A stretch of DNA of 64,000 nucleotides from an uncultured Chromatiales bacterium (GTDB lineage Bacteria; Bacteroidota; Ignavibacteria; SZUA-365). Below the pieces are notes generated by a model. The model made no database searches. It was not told the origin of the DNA and was given only the letters and a program-made list of their open reading frames with translations. Both the position numbers and the translations under genes were made by a program. The stretch covers positions 10,970-74,969 of the forward strand of contig CAYUWG010000013.1 in NCBI GenBank assembly GCA_964448285.1, given 5' to 3'. Positions 15,957 through 27,251 of the stretch are shown here, one piece after another. Every line of letters starts with the position of its first letter. The stretch's first letter is position 1.

Positions 15957-18776
15957 ATGAAATTTCTCCTCCCCATACTCTTTCTCATTTCATTCACGTT
16001 CAATCTTCAAGCACAGGGCTTTTCCGTTAGCGGAAGTGTTTACGACGGCGTAACCGGCCAAGCGCTGAGTAGGGCGAACGTATTCATTTTCAAACTCCCT
16101 GACTCAACGCGGCGCGGAATGACTTCCGATGCGAAGGGCGGATTCACATTTCAGGACGTCGAGAAAGGACGGTACGTTCTCCGCATAAGCTTCATCGGTT
16201 ATGAAACCGTCACGCGAAACTTCCAGGTTCTTGATAAAGGGGTGAATCTCGGCCGTATCAATATGAAAGAAGACAGCATCGCCGTGAGTGAAGTGGAAGT
16301 AACCGCCCGACAACCGATTGCCGTCGTGAAAGATGACACGACGGAATTTCAAGCAGGCGCATTCAAGACCAATCCGGATGCTTCCGCAGAAGATCTCGTG
16401 AAGAAGGTTCCGGGTGTTACCGTTCAAGGCGGCCAGATTCAGGCACAAGGTGAAACGGTTCGACAGGTGCTCGTCGATGGAAAGCCTATGTTTGGCATGG
16501 ACCCAACTGCCGTTCTCAAAACTCTACCGGCAGAACTCATCGATCGCGTGCAGGTTTTCGATCAGCAAACGGAACAGGCGCAGTTCACGGGCGTGCGTGA
16601 CGGGAATGAGAGCAAAGCGATCAACCTGATCACCAAGAATGCATTCCAGAATTCCCGTTTCGGAAAGATCTATGGCGCTTACGGAAGCGACGATTTGTAT
16701 CGCGTCGGTGGAAACGTCAATTGGTTCAGCGGGAAGACGAGGCTGTCATTCCTCGGAATGTCCAATAACATCAATGAGCAGAATTTTTCGATCGAAGATA
16801 TCCTTGGCGCAACCGGTCAAGGAGGAGGCTTCGGCGGAATGTTCCGGACGGTGGTGGGCATTTTCGGTGGAGGCCGGGGAGGCGGTGCCACACGCTTCGT
16901 TGGCGGCAGCGGCGGTCGCGGTTTTGGTGGGATCAGTGATTTTACGGTGGGTCAGCAAAACGGCATCGCACAAACGCACGCCATCGGTTTGAATTATTCC
17001 GATCAATGGGGGCAGGACGTCGAACTCTCGACCAGCTATTTCTTCAACCTCAATGACAACAACGCGAGCAGCGAAACCTTTCGACAATACCTCGCCGATT
17101 CGGGACTCGTGTATGACGAGAAAAATCTCAGCGACAGCCGCAACATCAATCACCGGTTCAATATGCGCTTCGACTGGAAGTTAGACACGACGAATTCGAT
17201 TCTTGTCAGGCCGCGACTGACGCTGCAGCAAAACGAGAGTTCAAGCGATCTCAACGGAAACACGACACAGAATATTCTTCCCGTCAGTGGCACAGCGAGC
17301 ACAACGTCGAACGACTATCTCGGGATCAACTTCAGCAACGAACTCCTGTATCGGCATCGCTTCGAAGCGAAGGGACGGACATTCTCTATCAATCTTTCGC
17401 AGGGTTACAACAAAAACAGCGGTGACAGTTACCTTCTGTCGCAGAACAATTTCTTCGGCAGGACGGTGATCAGGGATACGCTGAACCAATTCTCTTCGCC
17501 GCTCACCGATGGCTGGTCACTCGGAACGGAAGTCGCTTATACGGAGCCGATCATCGAGAACAGTACGTTGGAGTTTCGTTATGAGGCATCCCTGAAACGC
17601 GATGACTCCGACCGCAGAACCTATGATTTCAACCAACTGACTTCCCTCTATGACCTGCTTGACCCGACGCTCTCAAGTACGTTCAACAGCGACTACATGA
17701 CGCATTCCGGCGGCGCTCGCTTCCAATACGACAAAGATGAGTTCAATATGAACATTGGAGCGACGTTTCAGGTCGCGAAGCTGACCGGCGATAACGTATA
17801 TCCGTTTATCAGCACGGTCGATAAGACATTCCAAAACATCCTTCCAAGCGCGCATGTCCGGTACCGGTTCACGCGTGAATCCCATCTGAGAATGTTCTAC
17901 CGCGCGCGAACGAATGCTCCAAGCATCACGCAGCTTCAGGACGTGGTGAACAACTCCAATCCTCTCCAGCTTTCGATTGGAAATCCCGATCTGAAACAAG
18001 CGTACTCGCACAACATGAACTTCATGTTCGTCGATGCGGATATTCCGAATGCGAAGTACTTCTTCGGGATGGTCGGCGGTTCGATCACCGATGACAACAT
18101 CGGCAACCATACGATCATTGCTTACAGCGACACGCTGGCGGACGGCGTCTCACTTCTGCGCGGTACGCAACTGACAAAACCGGTGAATCTCGATGGCGCG
18201 TATTCCCTTCGTTCGATGGTAACCTACGGTTTCTCATGGCCGCTCATCTCATCGAACCTCAATCTCAACGCGATGGCGAATGTCAGCCGCTCACCGGGTC
18301 TCATCAACAACGAGTTGAACTACACGCTTTCACCTACGTTTACGCTCGGTGCTGTGGTCAGCAGCAACATCAGTCCGGAAGTCGATTTCACCATCTCGTC
18401 CCAATCCATCTACAGCATCGTGGATAATTCCTTGAGAAAGGAACTCAACACAGAGTACTTCATGCAGAACACGAGTCTGAAATTGAACCTGATTTTCCTC
18501 GGCGATTTCGTATTCTCGACGGATCTCAATCACCAGCTCATCAACGGACTTTCCTCCGATTACAACGAGCGAACCATGCTCTGGAATATGAGCATCGGAC
18601 GGAAGTTCTTCGACAATACCATCGATGCACGGTTGGTCGTGTTCGATTTGCTGAAGGAGAACAACAACATCTCCCGTAACGTGACGGACGTGTATTTCGA
18701 GGACGTTCGTTCGAATGTCTTACAGCAGTACTTCCTCTTCCAGGTAACCTACAACCTGAAGATGTTTGGCGGCTGA
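15957..18776 (+). CDS. TonB-dependent receptor / outer-membrane beta-barrel protein with N-terminal CarboxypepD_reg-like domain
   Basis: Signal peptide MKFLLPILFLISFTFNLQAQ, then the SGSVYDGVTGQALSRANVFIF...GRYVLRISFIGYETV carboxypeptidase-regulatory-like fold, then a long beta-strand-rich barrel. Track start 15819 rejected (non-signal-peptide extension). Confidence 0.8.
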   Translation: MKFLLPILFLISFTFNLQAQGFSVSGSVYDGVTGQALSRANVFIFKLPDSTRRGMTSDAKGGFTFQDVEKGRYVLRISFIGYETVTRNFQVLDKGVNLGRINMKEDSIAVSEVEVTARQPIAVVKDDTTEFQAGAFKTNPDASAEDLVKKVPGVTVQGGQIQAQGETVRQVLVDGKPMFGMDPTAVLKTLPAELIDRVQVFDQQTEQAQFTGVRDGNESKAINLITKNAFQNSRFGKIYGAYGSDDLYRVGGNVNWFSGKTRLSFLGMSNNINEQNFSIEDILGATGQGGGFGGMFRTVVGIFGGGRGGGATRFVGGSGGRGFGGISDFTVGQQNGIAQTHAIGLNYSDQWGQDVELSTSYFFNLNDNNASSETFRQYLADSGLVYDEKNLSDSRNINHRFNMRFDWKLDTTNSILVRPRLTLQQNESSSDLNGNTTQNILPVSGTASTTSNDYLGINFSNELLYRHRFEAKGRTFSINLSQGYNKNSGDSYLLSQNNFFGRTVIRDTLNQFSSPLTDGWSLGTEVAYTEPIIENSTLEFRYEASLKRDDSDRRTYDFNQLTSLYDLLDPTLSSTFNSDYMTHSGGARFQYDKDEFNMNIGATFQVAKLTGDNVYPFISTVDKTFQNILPSAHVRYRFTRESHLRMFYRARTNAPSITQLQDVVNNSNPLQLSIGNPDLKQAYSHNMNFMFVDADIPNAKYFFGMVGGSITDDNIGNHTIIAYSDTLADGVSLLRGTQLTKPVNLDGAYSLRSMVTYGFSWPLISSNLNLNAMANVSRSPGLINNELNYTLSPTFTLGAVVSSNISPEVDFTISSQSIYSIVDNSLRKELNTEYFMQNTSLKLNLIFLGDFVFSTDLNHQLINGLSSDYNERTMLWNMSIGRKFFDNTIDARLVVFDLLKENNNISRNVTDVYFEDVRSNVLQQYFLFQVTYNLKMFGG

Positions 18777-18799
18777 CATTTAGCAATCTCTGAAAGAAA

Positions 18800-18826
18800 A
18801 AAGGGCGCGATGAGCGCCCTTTTCGT
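18800..18826 (+). terminator. rho-independent terminator after the TonB receptor gene
   Basis: aaaaaaGGGCGCgatgaGCGCCCttttcgtttt: a GC stem followed by a T-run, 25 nt after the stop. Confidence 0.6.
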
Positions 18827-18844
18827 TTTGTGTGCTGGGAGTTG

Positions 18845-18895
18845 ATTCAATGGAGCACCTTGCGCGAGAGAGCGTCGTTGTTTTGGTTGCTATGC
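18845..18895 (-). repeat. terminal partial attC-like site (R''/L'' half only), end of cassette array
   Basis: gagagagcgtcgttgttttggttGCTATGCgatg closely matches the stop-proximal half of the other inter-cassette elements (gagcgccgtgttgccgtttGCTATGCgctcg). It sits 13 nt 3' of the restriction-endonuclease stop. No matching core-proximal half is present. Confidence 0.4.
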
Positions 18896-18908
18896 GATGT
18901 GGTGGCGT

Positions 18909-19598
18909 TCAGCCTCGTTCAAGTCGCTGAATCTCGCTGTTGATCTGAATGAGCACTTCGGGATTGCCGATCTCCCCGTCTAGACTGAAAACAATGAAAA
19001 CCTTTCCGCCATACGTTTGAGTAAATTCTTCAAAGCTGGCTTTCATGCGCTCGGAGAGCGAATACCCACCGAAATTTGCTTTTGCGGTAACAGGTTTGAT
19101 TTGAATCCCGAAAGCCTTGTCTCCTACCCATCCTAAGTAGTCTATGTCCCCCGCATGATCCAGTTGAGGCGATGACTCTTCAAACGTGATGGATGGAAAC
19201 TTCTTGCTCAGACCATCAGTGACGACGGACTTCTCAGTGACATAACCGTCGTAGGTACGGTTAATTGTGAGATTGTAAATGAAATCGATGCAGTCGTCGA
19301 GAGTTAGTGTTCGGAATGCCTCTTGCCATTCCGGAATAAGGAACTCGGTAATCTTGGTATACAGCCGTTCACCAAGCTCTTGCAAACTTTCCTTTGTAAC
19401 CTTGTGCGGAACCTTCGTTTTTGTATGAGCGTGCTCAAAGTACCACTGTTCCCATTCCTTGAATGTCTTGGGTTGACACTCCCTAATGAGAGCCATTACC
19501 TCGCCGACCTTGTGTGTCTTTGTAAGACCCCATTTCCCATTCGCATAGTTCAAGACCATTTCTTTGGTCCCAAAATCCTTGGAGTATTTTTTAGGCAT
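18909..19598 (-). CDS. putative type II restriction endonuclease (PD-(D/E)xK-like), partner of adjacent methyltransferase
   Basis: 229-aa ORF starting at ATG 19598 (track start 19673). ATG overlaps the MTase stop by 8 nt (ctgcATGCCTAA), i.e. translational coupling. Candidate D...(Q/E)xK element GDIDYLGWVGDKAFGIQIKP. Confidence 0.45.
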   Translation of the reverse strand: MPKKYSKDFGTKEMVLNYANGKWGLTKTHKVGEVMALIRECQPKTFKEWEQWYFEHAHTKTKVPHKVTKESLQELGERLYTKITEFLIPEWQEAFRTLTLDDCIDFIYNLTINRTYDGYVTEKSVVTDGLSKKFPSITFEESSPQLDHAGDIDYLGWVGDKAFGIQIKPVTAKANFGGYSLSERMKASFEEFTQTYGGKVFIVFSLDGEIGNPEVLIQINSEIQRLERG

Positions 19599-20904
19599 GC
19601 AGTCCTGATGTTGGCTGAATAATAGTGAAGGCGAGAAACTTGTCCTTGTATTTGTAAGTGCGAACAACGTCAACGTTAACGAAGCCTGACTTGATCAAGT
19701 GTGCGTTCAGGAATGTCTTATTCTTGAGGTAAACGTAGGACAACAGAATCCCGTTCTCGTCATGTTTGTCCTTGTCGAATCTCAGGAAGACCCTCTGACC
19801 CTTCATCTTGGAATTCAGGAACTCCATAGCCTCTTCTCGACGTCTTGGCTCTTCGGCTACTCCAATAAGCCTGATCGTAAGCCCGTTGTTGAGTTTGAGA
19901 AGTTCAGGGCTGAGGATCTCCGTTACGTTATACAACTCGGCTCTTTCTCCATTATCGCCGTTCTCGATCTTCGAGCCGAACTTCAGCTTTCGAGGATCAA
20001 CCTTCTTGTCCAACTCGTGCGGGTCAGTAAACCTGTATGGAAGGGATTCAATGTCCTTGTCTAAGTTCTCGTGTGCCTGTTGTTGAGTAACGAAATCACA
20101 GGAGGCATCACCGAATATATCATGCTGGGAAATCTTCAATTTATTCTTGATAATTGGAGCGAATGAAGGGTTTATTTCATAGCCGATGGAATTCCTGCCG
20201 AGGTTCTTTGCGGCAAGCGATGTCGTTCCGCTTCCAAGAAAAGGATCAAGGACGGTATCGCCGACGAATGAAAACATTCGAATCAATCGCCGGGGAAGTT
20301 CTTCGGGAAACATTGCTAAGTGCTTGTCTTGGCGTTCGCCAGCAAAGTTCCAGTGCCCGGCAAAATAGGTATTCCATTCGTCTGTTGTGAGTTTGGAAAG
20401 TTCCTTCATCTCTTTGCTGACTTTTGGCGGGTCACCTAACTTCTTGAATATGAGAATGAACTCGTAATCAATCTTCAGGATGCCATTTCTTGGGTAAGGA
20501 AATGAACCCATTATTGAGGCACCACCGGTCGTGTTGGTTGTCGTTACCTTTTGCCAAATAATGGCGCCCATGTAGTCCATTCCGATGGTCTCACAGAACT
20601 TAGTAATCTCCGTCCTAATCGGGATAACCTTGTAACGCCCGTAATAAACGGAGCGGGCGAACTGGTCGCCGATATTGATGCAAAGCCGGCACCCTTTATG
20701 GAGAACCCGAGAGGACTCCTTCCACACAAGATTCAGATTGTTGATATAGCTTTCGTACGTATCGTGAAAGCCTATCTGTTTCTCGTCCCCATAGTCTTTG
20801 AGTTGCCAGTACGGCGGCGAAGTGATAACAAGGTGAACGGATTCTGCTGCGATTTCTGTCATTCGCCTTGCATCGCCGATTACTATTTTGTGATGGGTGG
20901 CCAT
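19591..20904 (-). CDS. beta-class N4-cytosine/N6-adenine DNA methyltransferase fused to a C-terminal SNase-like (thermonuclease-fold) domain
   Basis: Motif IV VITSPPYWQLKDYG precedes motif I VLDPFLGSGTTSLAAKNLGRNSIGYEI (beta-class order). C-terminal ~140 aa (LTIRLIGVAEEPRRREEAMEFL...YVYLKNKTFLNAHLIKSGFV) aligns with the staphylococcal-nuclease fold. Start moved to ATG 20904 (MATHHKIVIGDARRM). Confidence 0.85.
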   Translation of the reverse strand: MATHHKIVIGDARRMTEIAAESVHLVITSPPYWQLKDYGDEKQIGFHDTYESYINNLNLVWKESSRVLHKGCRLCINIGDQFARSVYYGRYKVIPIRTEITKFCETIGMDYMGAIIWQKVTTTNTTGGASIMGSFPYPRNGILKIDYEFILIFKKLGDPPKVSKEMKELSKLTTDEWNTYFAGHWNFAGERQDKHLAMFPEELPRRLIRMFSFVGDTVLDPFLGSGTTSLAAKNLGRNSIGYEINPSFAPIIKNKLKISQHDIFGDASCDFVTQQQAHENLDKDIESLPYRFTDPHELDKKVDPRKLKFGSKIENGDNGERAELYNVTEILSPELLKLNNGLTIRLIGVAEEPRRREEAMEFLNSKMKGQRVFLRFDKDKHDENGILLSYVYLKNKTFLNAHLIKSGFVNVDVVRTYKYKDKFLAFTIIQPTSGLHA

Positions 20905-20976
20905 ACTTCCTGAACCAATGTACTGAATCTCAATCACATTTGCTGGTTCTTTGCGCAAGAGAAACGCCACCAGTTC

Positions 20977-21266
20977 ACCTAATGCTCAGCGCAAGTACGC
21001 CGCTGTTATTGCCGTTCAGGAACGATACGTCGGAAGCCGCTTCGACGCATTTCTTCGCTGTTGGAACCACAAACCAATCCGTGAGCAAATCCGTTGAGTA
21101 GCCACAACTATCCTTCCTAAGCTTCAACCAAGCCATATCAACAAGTGAGCGCCGTTGTATTCGCTGCTTTGTGCCTTGTGCCTTCTACCACAACTTTACA
21201 TTTAGCCAAACCTTCATTCAACATCGCCAATAAAACGTGCGAGCGCCGTGTTGCCGTTTGCTATGC
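20977..21266 (-). repeat. attC-like inter-cassette element A (contains an internal tandem duplication of the stop-proximal arm)
   Basis: Left end ACCTAAT is a degenerate complement of the GTTAGGT core. The body has two tandem copies of ..accacaact..catatcaacaagtgagcgccgttg... Right end GCTATGC lies 28 nt before the rsgA stop. Similar to elements B, C and D. Confidence 0.5.
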
Positions 21267-22371: not shown

Positions 22372-22416
22372 TTGGTGTCCTAAGTATAGTCAGTAAACAA
22401 GGCCGCTGCCCATGGC

Positions 22417-22619
22417 GCCTAACATTTAGCGCAAGGACGCCACTGTTTTTGCCTTTCAGAAATGCCGCGCACGGAGCCGCTATCAATAGACTAATTTCTT
22501 GCGGCGAAGTGCGCATACCAACTTGCGGCAAAAACCGTTGAGCGACCACAACTATTTTTCCCCACAGCTTTAACTGAGCCATATAAACAAATGGGGCGGC
22601 GTGGTTACGCCTGTTATAC
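22417..22619 (-). repeat. attC-like inter-cassette element B
   Basis: Plus strand begins GCCTAAC (complement of the canonical core GTTAGGC) 45 nt upstream of the rsgA ATG and ends GTTATAC 28 nt before the peptidase stop. The arms are mutually complementary (gcgcaaggacgcc / ggcgtggttacgc). Confidence 0.55.
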
Positions 22620-22646
22620 GAAAAATGCCACAAAGCCTTTCTCATT

Positions 22647-24065: not shown

Positions 24066-24099
24066 GTGTCGGGCTCCTTTCGTGTCAATTTTCAAATGA

Positions 24100-24295
24100 C
24101 GTTTGCAGCAACAACGTAGCGGTTTATGCCGCTCAAAGATGAGCGCCGAAGGGAGCTATCAAAGGACCAATTCTCGGCGCGCGTAGGCGCAAGACCAACA
24201 CGCGGCAATAACAATGGATAGACCACAACGACCTTTTCCATAGCCTTAACTGCGCCCTATCAACAAAGGGAGCGCCGGTGTTACTGCTGTTATGC
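24100..24295 (-). repeat. attC-like inter-cassette element C (core-proximal 7-mer apparently deleted)
   Basis: Right end GTTATGC (24289-24295) contains the TAA stop of the HNH gene on the opposite strand. The body is similar to element B. At the left end, the cataacgt found at the same position in element D is missing (aatgacg---tttgcagc). Confidence 0.5.
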
Positions 24296-25189
24296 GTTCG
24301 TTGGTTTGCCGCGCTTCTTCCATTGTTCCTTCTTGAGCCTCTTCTCGAGTCTCTTGTGGCATCTGTCGTGTAAAAGGATAGCATGTGTAAGATCGTCAGT
24401 CTTACCACCTTTGGCGTGCGGAATGATGTGATGTGATGACGAATCACCAAATCGCATCTGTTTGCCGCATTCGCCACACAGTCCATTTTGGCGAAAAAAA
24501 AGAAGTCGTTTTTGCTCAGCATCATGCAGTCGGTCGGGGTCCCTGACAATAATGGGGTGAAGCCTTTTGAATTCTTCTATCATGATCCCAAGGCGATTTG
24601 TCAATGACTCAGAAGTTGTCAAGATTTTCGACTCTTGCTTGAACTGCTTATATCGTGAGAACAATTTTTTGGTCATGCCAGGTGGTGGGTCAACCTCGTA
24701 GAGCGAGAAGCTATTAAGGTTTCTTAGAAATTCCTTGCCAAATTCGAACAACTCATTTAACAACTGTGAATTGTCAGCACGCTGCTTTCTGAGCCATGAT
24801 ACAAGCAGATAGAAAGCAATCGATTCCCTGGGTGAGAAGGCCGTAAGCATCAGGTTGAGAGATGAATGAAGAACATCTAGATTGCCGATGAAGGCTTTGA
24901 CCTTCTTTGCAGGAATCTTCTTTTGGTATGACTTGACCCCCTTGACAAGCGTGTGGAGTTCTAGGTCAGGGAAGACTCTTCTTTGAAAATCACCTTCAAG
25001 TTCGATTAGCAGCATCTCGGCGGCAAGTTGTCTCCACCTGAATCGTTTGTCTTTTCCAAGAAGTGTAAAGAACTTATGTGTCTCACGGGTGTTCTTAAAG
25101 GTATCTTTGAATAGACCGCGATGAGCGCTGATCTTTTCTGCCTTGTTAAGTGGTGTGCCTTCCCTGTAAGCGTAGAAAGGTTTGAACAA
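24290..25189 (-). CDS. HNH endonuclease domain protein (DUF1524-like), C-terminal half of a GmrSD-like type IV restriction module
   Basis: GLCGECGKQMRFGDSSSHHIIPHAKGGKTDDLTHAILLHDRCHKRLEKR is an HNH motif. Overlaps the upstream DUF262 ORF by 44 nt in another frame. Confidence 0.7.
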   Translation of the reverse strand: MFKPFYAYREGTPLNKAEKISAHRGLFKDTFKNTRETHKFFTLLGKDKRFRWRQLAAEMLLIELEGDFQRRVFPDLELHTLVKGVKSYQKKIPAKKVKAFIGNLDVLHSSLNLMLTAFSPRESIAFYLLVSWLRKQRADNSQLLNELFEFGKEFLRNLNSFSLYEVDPPPGMTKKLFSRYKQFKQESKILTTSESLTNRLGIMIEEFKRLHPIIVRDPDRLHDAEQKRLLFFRQNGLCGECGKQMRFGDSSSHHIIPHAKGGKTDDLTHAILLHDRCHKRLEKRLKKEQWKKRGKPTNA

Positions 25190-26700: not shown

Positions 26701-26720
26701 TAAACGAACATGTTCGTTTA
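26701..26720. repeat. perfect 20-bp palindrome TAAACGAACATGTTCGTTTA overlapping the intI-fragment stop codon
   Basis: Read directly from sequence: 9-bp arms and a 2-nt centre. Located between the recombinase fragment and the first cassette. Candidate recombinase-binding/attI-like site or terminator hairpin. Confidence 0.5.
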
Positions 26721-27251
26721 TTTCGATCCTGTAAGAACAGCCGTGTCTAATGGACTGACGATCTTGCCAAGCGACTTCTTGCTTACGTGCGTATAATTCT
26801 CCGTCGTCTTCGAGCTGGCGTGACCGAAGAGTTCCTCTATGTACCGGAGGCCAGTCCCGGCTTCCAGAAGGTGTGTCGCAAAAGCATAACGCCGGCTGTG
26901 AACTATGACTTTCTTGCGAATCCCCGCAGCAGCGACAGCCCGCTCGAAGACGTACTGGACACTCCGTTCCGACAAGTGCTTCCTGCCGTCCGCGCCTTCG
27001 AACAAGTACTCCATCGGCTGGCAGGTACAGAAAGACTCGCGCAACGGCTCCGAGGCAACGTAGGAGAGAAGGGAGTACATGTCCTTTATTCCTTTCGAGC
27101 CATGCAGGTGCAGGAGCATTCGTTTGCTGTGGCTGTGTTTCCTCAACCTCATCTCTCTCTCCACTGTCTCGAAAAACTTGTCGGCCATGTGTGGCCCCTG
27201 TGCAGGTTCAACAATCAGTTGTTGCAACGTTACGGAAAGAGTCACTTTCAA
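26718..27251 (-). pseudogene. 5'-truncated tyrosine recombinase with integron-integrase-like C-terminus (intI remnant)
   Basis: Catalytic C-terminal region HSRRYAFATHLLEAGTGLRYIEELFGHASSKTTENYTHV (HxxR...Y), followed by VSPLDTAV as in IntI1 (VRSPLDAL). GSKGIKDMYSLLSYVASEPLRESF is comparable to IntI1 [23 protein letters not shown]. Only about 177 aa are present, with no N-terminal domain and no upstream ORF. Confidence 0.65.

What the first reader, a model, noticed from the sequence alone, without database searches (positions are those of the whole stretch)
19591..20904. DNA methyltransferase fused to an SNase-like (thermonuclease-fold) domain in a cassette-borne restriction-modification system
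The N-terminal ~290 aa is a beta-class amino-methyltransferase (SPPY motif IV before FLGSGTT motif I). The C-terminal ~140 aa aligns to the staphylococcal-nuclease fold (..LTIRLIGVAEEPRRREEAMEFL..GQRVFLRFDKDKHDENGILLSYVYL..NAHLIKSGF). The Ca-binding Asp equivalent appears to be replaced (VAEEP vs VDTPE), so the domain may be a DNA-binding or regulatory module rather than an active nuclease.

The 229-aa partner ORF is translationally coupled by an 8-nt overlap (ATGCCTAA) and has a weak PD-(D/E)xK-like element, consistent with a type II REase. An MTase-SNase fusion is not an arrangement I recognise from standard restriction-modification systems.
Basis: partly seen in the sequence, partly recalled or inferred. 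Interest (0 to 1): 0.55.

Follow-up and report, generated by a model that had tools for sequence, protein, structure and literature searches.

The report
CTAG-type methylase with dead nuclease domain
This is an ordinary two-gene restriction-modification system of the MjaI (probably CTAG) type on an integron-style gene cassette; its methylase carries an extra C-terminal domain with the staphylococcal-nuclease fold that has lost the catalytic residues, and this arrangement is already very common in public databases but has not been studied.

Summary

The 229-aa partner gene overlaps by 8 nt (ATGCCTAA) and is a clear MjaI-family restriction endonuclease (E 2e-29).

It is not rare:
- Protein searches hit their 8000-candidate ceiling.
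- At least 594 species genomes carry a relative; the best 80, from many bacterial phyla and one archaeal MAG, all keep the C-terminal domain.
- 66 of 78 loci with enough downstream sequence have an MjaI-like endonuclease downstream.
- Automated annotation already names some members "thermonuclease family protein".

"Cassette-borne" is supported: homologous pairs elsewhere share attC-type ends, and the window holds an integrase remnant.

Most likely the system methylates and cuts CTAG (m4C), and the dead nuclease domain is an accessory DNA-binding module. That last step is inference. Interest is low to moderate.

The parts
19591..20904 (-). Methyltransferase gene, 437 aa: beta-class amino-MTase fused to a pseudo-SNase domain.
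20125..20904 (-). MTase catalytic domain (residues 1-260). TSPPY (motif IV) at 28-32 and FLGSGTT (motif I) at 222-228.
19939..20124 (-). Linker (residues 261-322). It contains the conserved motif LPYxFxDPxxLDKKxDPxKxxFGSKI (288-313); G310 and S311 are nearly invariant.
   Evidence: Conservation. pLDDT is 87-94 for residues 281-300 in the full-length model but 53-61 in the domain-only model, which suggests this segment docks on the MTase domain.
19621..19938 (-). SNase-fold (OB-barrel) pseudo-nuclease domain (residues 323-428). Hallmark motif: YxYLKNKTFxNAHLIKxGxxxVD.
18909..19598 (-). MjaI-family type II restriction endonuclease, 229 aa. Its start overlaps the MTase stop by 8 nt.
   Evidence: PF09568 RE_MjaI, E 2.3e-29. 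Family invariants E122, D147, D153, Q166, K168. An MjaI-like gene lies downstream of the MTase in 66 of 78 homologous loci.
20965..20983 (-). 5' end of the cassette: ATTAGGTGAACTGGTGGCG. This is a decayed version of the GTTAGGTGAAACGGTGGC core found upstream of homologous MTases in other phyla.
18771..18907 (-). attC-like site closing the cassette. It runs from CGCCACCAC...GCATAGCAAC, immediately after the REase stop, to a GTCAGCC core that overlaps the stop codon of the convergent outer-membrane receptor gene. It encloses a terminator-like GC hairpin.
20971..21215 (-). Long (about 245 nt) attC-like repeat between rsgA and the MTase. It is one of three related copies; the others are at 22411-22640 and 24092-24298.
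   Evidence: nhmmer E 1e-58 to 1e-69.
26718..27251 (-). Truncated tyrosine recombinase (177 aa, C-terminal half only). Its best model is integron integrase, but below that model's cut-off.
   Evidence: Pfam Phage_integrase, E 2e-17. TIGR02249, E 4e-23, aligned only to model positions 233-314.

Best explanation
The locus is a compact type II restriction-modification operon carried as one integron-type gene cassette of about 2.2 kb.

Gene 1 is a beta-class amino-methyltransferase of the clade that includes the characterised m4C CTAG methylases. It most likely makes N4-methylcytosine in CTAG.

Gene 2 is translationally coupled by an ATGCCTAA overlap. It is an MjaI-family PD-(D/E)XK-type endonuclease that cuts unmethylated sites.

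After a conserved linker, the methylase carries a C-terminal domain that descends from a thermonuclease but has lost the Ca2+-binding and catalytic residues. My best reading is that this basic OB-fold pseudo-nuclease no longer cuts. Instead it acts as an accessory, sequence-nonspecific DNA-binding module that raises the methylase's affinity for DNA or its retention on DNA. [quoted passage not shown]

What is shown: domain identities, the fold, loss of catalytic residues, gene coupling, conservation of the gene pair, and the cassette ends.

What is inferred: CTAG and m4C specificity, and the DNA-binding role of the pseudo-nuclease domain.
For: Architecture and fold.

Loss of the active site.
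- In an alignment with S. aureus SNase and three true thermonuclease relatives (which keep the D/N-x-P-E and G-R motifs), the window protein has A350, P353 and I386 at the D40, E43 and R87 positions.
- Across 66 diverse family members these columns are K/R, P/E/S and N/T/I. Only the R35 column stays basic (R39/K20).

The domain is retained and under constraint.
- All 120 closest homologues are 418-456 aa.
- 17 columns are at least 80% conserved among the 66 diverse members, including Y390, Y392, N395, T397, F398, N400, G407, D412 and F423.
- The C-terminal part is 22-57% identical to the more distant set of relatives, which are 46-69% identical overall.

The domain is basic. Its pI is 9.3 and the family's median net charge is +7. 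Conserved K/R and aromatic residues occur at 345, 375, 394, 396, 405 and 417-422.

Specificity.
- The partner belongs to the MjaI family.
- The MTase domain is 34% identical to M.MthZI on plasmid pFZ1 (H7).
- M.MthZI, M.MjaI and M.BfaI are m4C CTAG enzymes with SPPY instead of DPPY (PMC5867850).
- CTAG is the most depleted 4-nt palindrome in the window: 12 observed against 44 expected, O/E 0.27.

Operon conservation: 66 of 78 homologous loci have an MjaI-like gene downstream.

Cassette.
- A conserved GTTAGGTGAAACGGTGGC lies 5' of the MTase, and GCCACCGCAGCGCCTAAC follows the REase, in loci annotated as other phyla (e.g. Acetothermia, Stahlbacteria, Nitrospira).
- The sites fold like attC.
- A Xer/IntI-type recombinase is adjacent in L011.
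- The window holds an integrase remnant.

Against: - There is no direct evidence that the pseudo-nuclease domain binds DNA. Net charge and fold ancestry are only suggestive.
- The characterised CTAG methylases (303-364 aa, PMC5867850) work without such a domain, so it is not needed for the chemistry.
- Identity to M.MthZI is only 34%. The closest solved relative, TTHA0409 (40%), has no specificity known to me. CTAG depletion is common in bacteria irrespective of R-M content (my own knowledge). CTAG and m4C are therefore a best guess.
- In the window the cassette cores are mutated (ATTAGGT and GTCAGCC instead of GTTRRRY) and the integrase is truncated, so this copy is probably no longer mobile.
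- The L011 recombinase scores higher on a Xer-type model than on the integron-integrase model.
Confidence: 0.6

Rival explanations
1. The pseudo-nuclease domain is a protein-protein module. It would either dimerise the methylase on the palindromic site, or dock and restrain the co-translated endonuclease during establishment. In the second case it would replace the controller (C) protein that this compact cassette lacks.
For: - There is no C-protein gene in the cassette, and the two genes are translationally coupled.
- The gene pair is highly conserved.
Against: - 12 of 78 loci with enough downstream sequence have no detectable MjaI-like REase, yet their methylase matches extend to residue 423 or beyond.
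- The REases next to nearly identical MTases range from 23 to 70% identity. That is hard to reconcile with a conserved interface.
- MjaI-type enzymes pair with short methylases in the characterised systems (PMC5867850).
Confidence: 0.2
2. The domain is an autoregulatory DNA-binding module. It would bind an operator upstream of the operon to time methylase and endonuclease expression, as the N-terminal HTH extensions of some methylases do.
For: The domain is basic, and there is no separate regulator in the cassette.
Against: - Upstream regions of 79 homologous loci share no common motif or palindrome. Only host-type promoter words such as TAAATTTG recur.
- The conserved 5' sequence, seen in 5 of 77 loci, is explained by the attC stem.
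Confidence: 0.07
3. The C-terminal domain is still an active nuclease, which would make the protein a bifunctional methylase-nuclease.
For: - The Pfam SNase score is above its cut-off, and NCBI names some members 'thermonuclease family protein'.
- The window protein has acidic residues E351 and E352 near the lost D40.
Against: - The D40, E43 and R87 equivalents are absent here and are not conserved in the family. The acidic residues at 351 and 352 are not conserved either.
- The thermonuclease C-terminal GLW helix motif is missing.
- An unregulated nuclease fused to a protective methylase would be counter-selected (inference).
Confidence: 0.04
4. The system is a type II R-M as described, but with a different target or base from m4C in CTAG. 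Examples would be an m6A enzyme or another 4-6 bp palindrome.
For: - JGI labels many members 'adenine-specific'.
- Specificity can shift within MTase and REase families (my own knowledge).
- The MjaI-like partners fall into three identity classes: about 65%, about 35% and about 25%.
Against: - The SPPY motif is typical of N4-cytosine enzymes (PMC5867850).
- The partner is a clear member of the MjaI family.
- CTAG is the most depleted palindrome in the window.
Confidence: 0.2

Closest known systems
MjaI / MthZI / BfaI CTAG restriction-modification systems (M.MjaI, M.MthZI, M.BfaI: type II, subtype beta, m4C)
   Same: - Beta-class methylase with SPPY.
- 34% identity to M.MthZI over residues 1-256.
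- The partner matches the RE_MjaI family.
- Two-gene type II layout.
   Different: The characterised methylases are 303-364 aa (PMC5867850) and so have no room for the roughly 180-aa linker plus SNase-fold extension. Specificity here is untested.
TTHA0409, putative DNA modification methylase of Thermus thermophilus HB8 (PDB 2zie)
   Different: It is 297 aa and ends where the linker begins, so it has no C-terminal domain.
Staphylococcal nuclease / thermonuclease family (PF00565)
   Same: It has the same OB-barrel-plus-helices fold. The sequence match is above the Pfam cut-off. The structural motifs RLxGV and AYVY...N.xL...G are kept.
   Different: The Ca2+ ligands and catalytic residues are missing except for the R35 equivalent. 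The C-terminal GLW helix motif is absent. The domain is fused to a methylase rather than secreted.
Inactive SN-like domains of eukaryotic Tudor-SN / extended Tudor proteins
   Different: The lineage, partners and context are unrelated, and there is no Tudor insertion here.
[quoted passage not shown]
   Different: I did not see CcrM's C-terminal domain among the matches to the SNase-like region. CcrM is an orphan m6A enzyme. The analogy is functional only and is untested here.
Type II R-M systems carried as integron gene cassettes
   Same: The R-M pair is bounded by attC-type sites with conserved ends, next to other defence-like cassettes and an integrase remnant. [quoted passage not shown]
   Different: The window's sites have mutated cores, unusually long (200-245 nt) repeats sit between neighbouring cassettes, and the integrase is truncated.

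Membership tests
Beta-class N4/N6 DNA amino-methyltransferases (PF01555) | Motif IV (S/D/N)PP(Y/F) lies N-terminal to motif I FxGxG (the beta permutation). | tested here: met
   TSPPY at residues 28-32 and FLGSGTT at 222-228.
Beta-class N4/N6 DNA amino-methyltransferases (PF01555) | Profile score above the curated cut-off, and the fold of solved members. | tested here: met
m4C CTAG methylases (M.MthZI / M.MjaI / M.BfaI) | Transfers methyl to N4 of the cytosine in CTAG. | not testable with these tools
   Indirect only: SPPY, 34% identity to M.MthZI, an MjaI-family partner, and CTAG O/E 0.27.
Staphylococcal nuclease / thermonuclease (PF00565) | SNase OB-barrel fold, and a profile score above the cut-off. 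| tested here: met
Staphylococcal nuclease / thermonuclease (PF00565) | Ca2+ ligands D21, D40, T41 and catalytic R35, E43, R87. | tested here: not met
   The window protein has E334, A350, E351, R345, P353 and I386 at these positions. Family columns are not conserved except the R/K at the R35 position. It is therefore homologous in fold but not a functional member.
MjaI restriction endonuclease family (PF09568) | Profile score above the cut-off. | tested here: met
   102.8 bits against 22.7, E 2.3e-29, residues 14-180.
MjaI restriction endonuclease family (PF09568) | PD-(D/E)XK-type catalytic residues. | tested here: inconclusive
   E122, D147, D153 and Q166-I-K168 are invariant in 57 sequences. 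This is compatible with a D...QxK variant. MjaI is placed in the superfamily by sequence analysis (PMC2441816). No structure was compared.
MjaI restriction endonuclease family (PF09568) | Cleaves C^TAG. | not testable with these tools
   Needs a digestion assay.
Integron gene cassette | Bounded by attC sites: RYYYAAC and GTTRRRY cores, with imperfect inverted repeats that fold as a hairpin. | tested here: inconclusive
   Homologous cassettes have canonical GTTAGGT/GTTAGGC cores upstream and GCCTAAC/GCTTAAC cores downstream. The window copy has ATTAGGT and GTCAGCC. The termini pair in DNA folds (z -1.7 to -2.7). No dedicated attC model was available, and Rfam gave nothing.
Integron gene cassette | Associated integron integrase. 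| tested here: inconclusive
   The window has only a 177-aa C-terminal remnant, 5.7 kb away, whose best model is TIGR02249 but below its cut-off. The L011 neighbour scores 233 bits on a Xer/integron-integrase model and 220 bits on TIGR02249 (cut-off 265).

The most novel reading that the evidence does not exclude
The degenerate SNase domain and its conserved LPYxFxDP...FGSKI linker might be an obligatory functional part of this methylase clade rather than a passive DNA-affinity tag. One possibility is a single-stranded or hairpin DNA-binding OB module that lets the enzyme act on unpaired DNA. Another is a built-in brake on the co-translated endonuclease that lets a two-gene cassette establish itself in new hosts across phyla without a controller protein.
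Probability: 0.15. Interest if true: 0.5.

Novelty: new member of a known kind. Interest (0 to 1): 0.3.

Why it matters
For this window it matters little. The locus is another copy of a very widespread R-M cassette.

Three points have some wider value:
- One horizontally mobile methylase clade, found in hundreds of species genomes across many phyla, uniformly retains a dead thermonuclease domain. I found no paper addressing its role. It is a clean, testable case of nuclease-to-binding-module exaptation in a bacterial defence system.
- Database names such as "thermonuclease family protein" for these methylases are misleading, because the nuclease site is gone.
- The conserved attC-type ends show that a complete R-M pair travels between phyla as a single integron-type cassette.

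Tried and rejected
- A sequence search of the PDB with the C-terminal 151 aa alone found nothing at E up to 10. Only the profile and the fold comparison revealed SNase.
- tblastn of the endonuclease against PLSDB plasmids found no match. No plasmid or phage record carries the full fusion; every match stops near residue 250-277.
- Rfam at gathering thresholds found only a tRNA, and nothing for the repeats.
- Folding one 250-nt inter-cassette repeat as single-stranded DNA was not significant (z -1.5). I therefore do not claim the long repeats are classical attC sites as a whole.
- A k-mer search for a shared operator in 79 upstream regions found none. This weakens the autoregulation idea.
- Full-text searches for a described SNase-methyltransferase fusion in R-M systems gave no relevant paper.
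- The upstream GTG start at 20970 was rejected, because homologues begin at the ATG.
- The idea that the 22-codon ORFs overlapping the repeats (for example 20975-21136) are genes was rejected. Their similarity is DNA-level repeat similarity.
- A PADLOC scan failed on a coordinate error and was not repeated.
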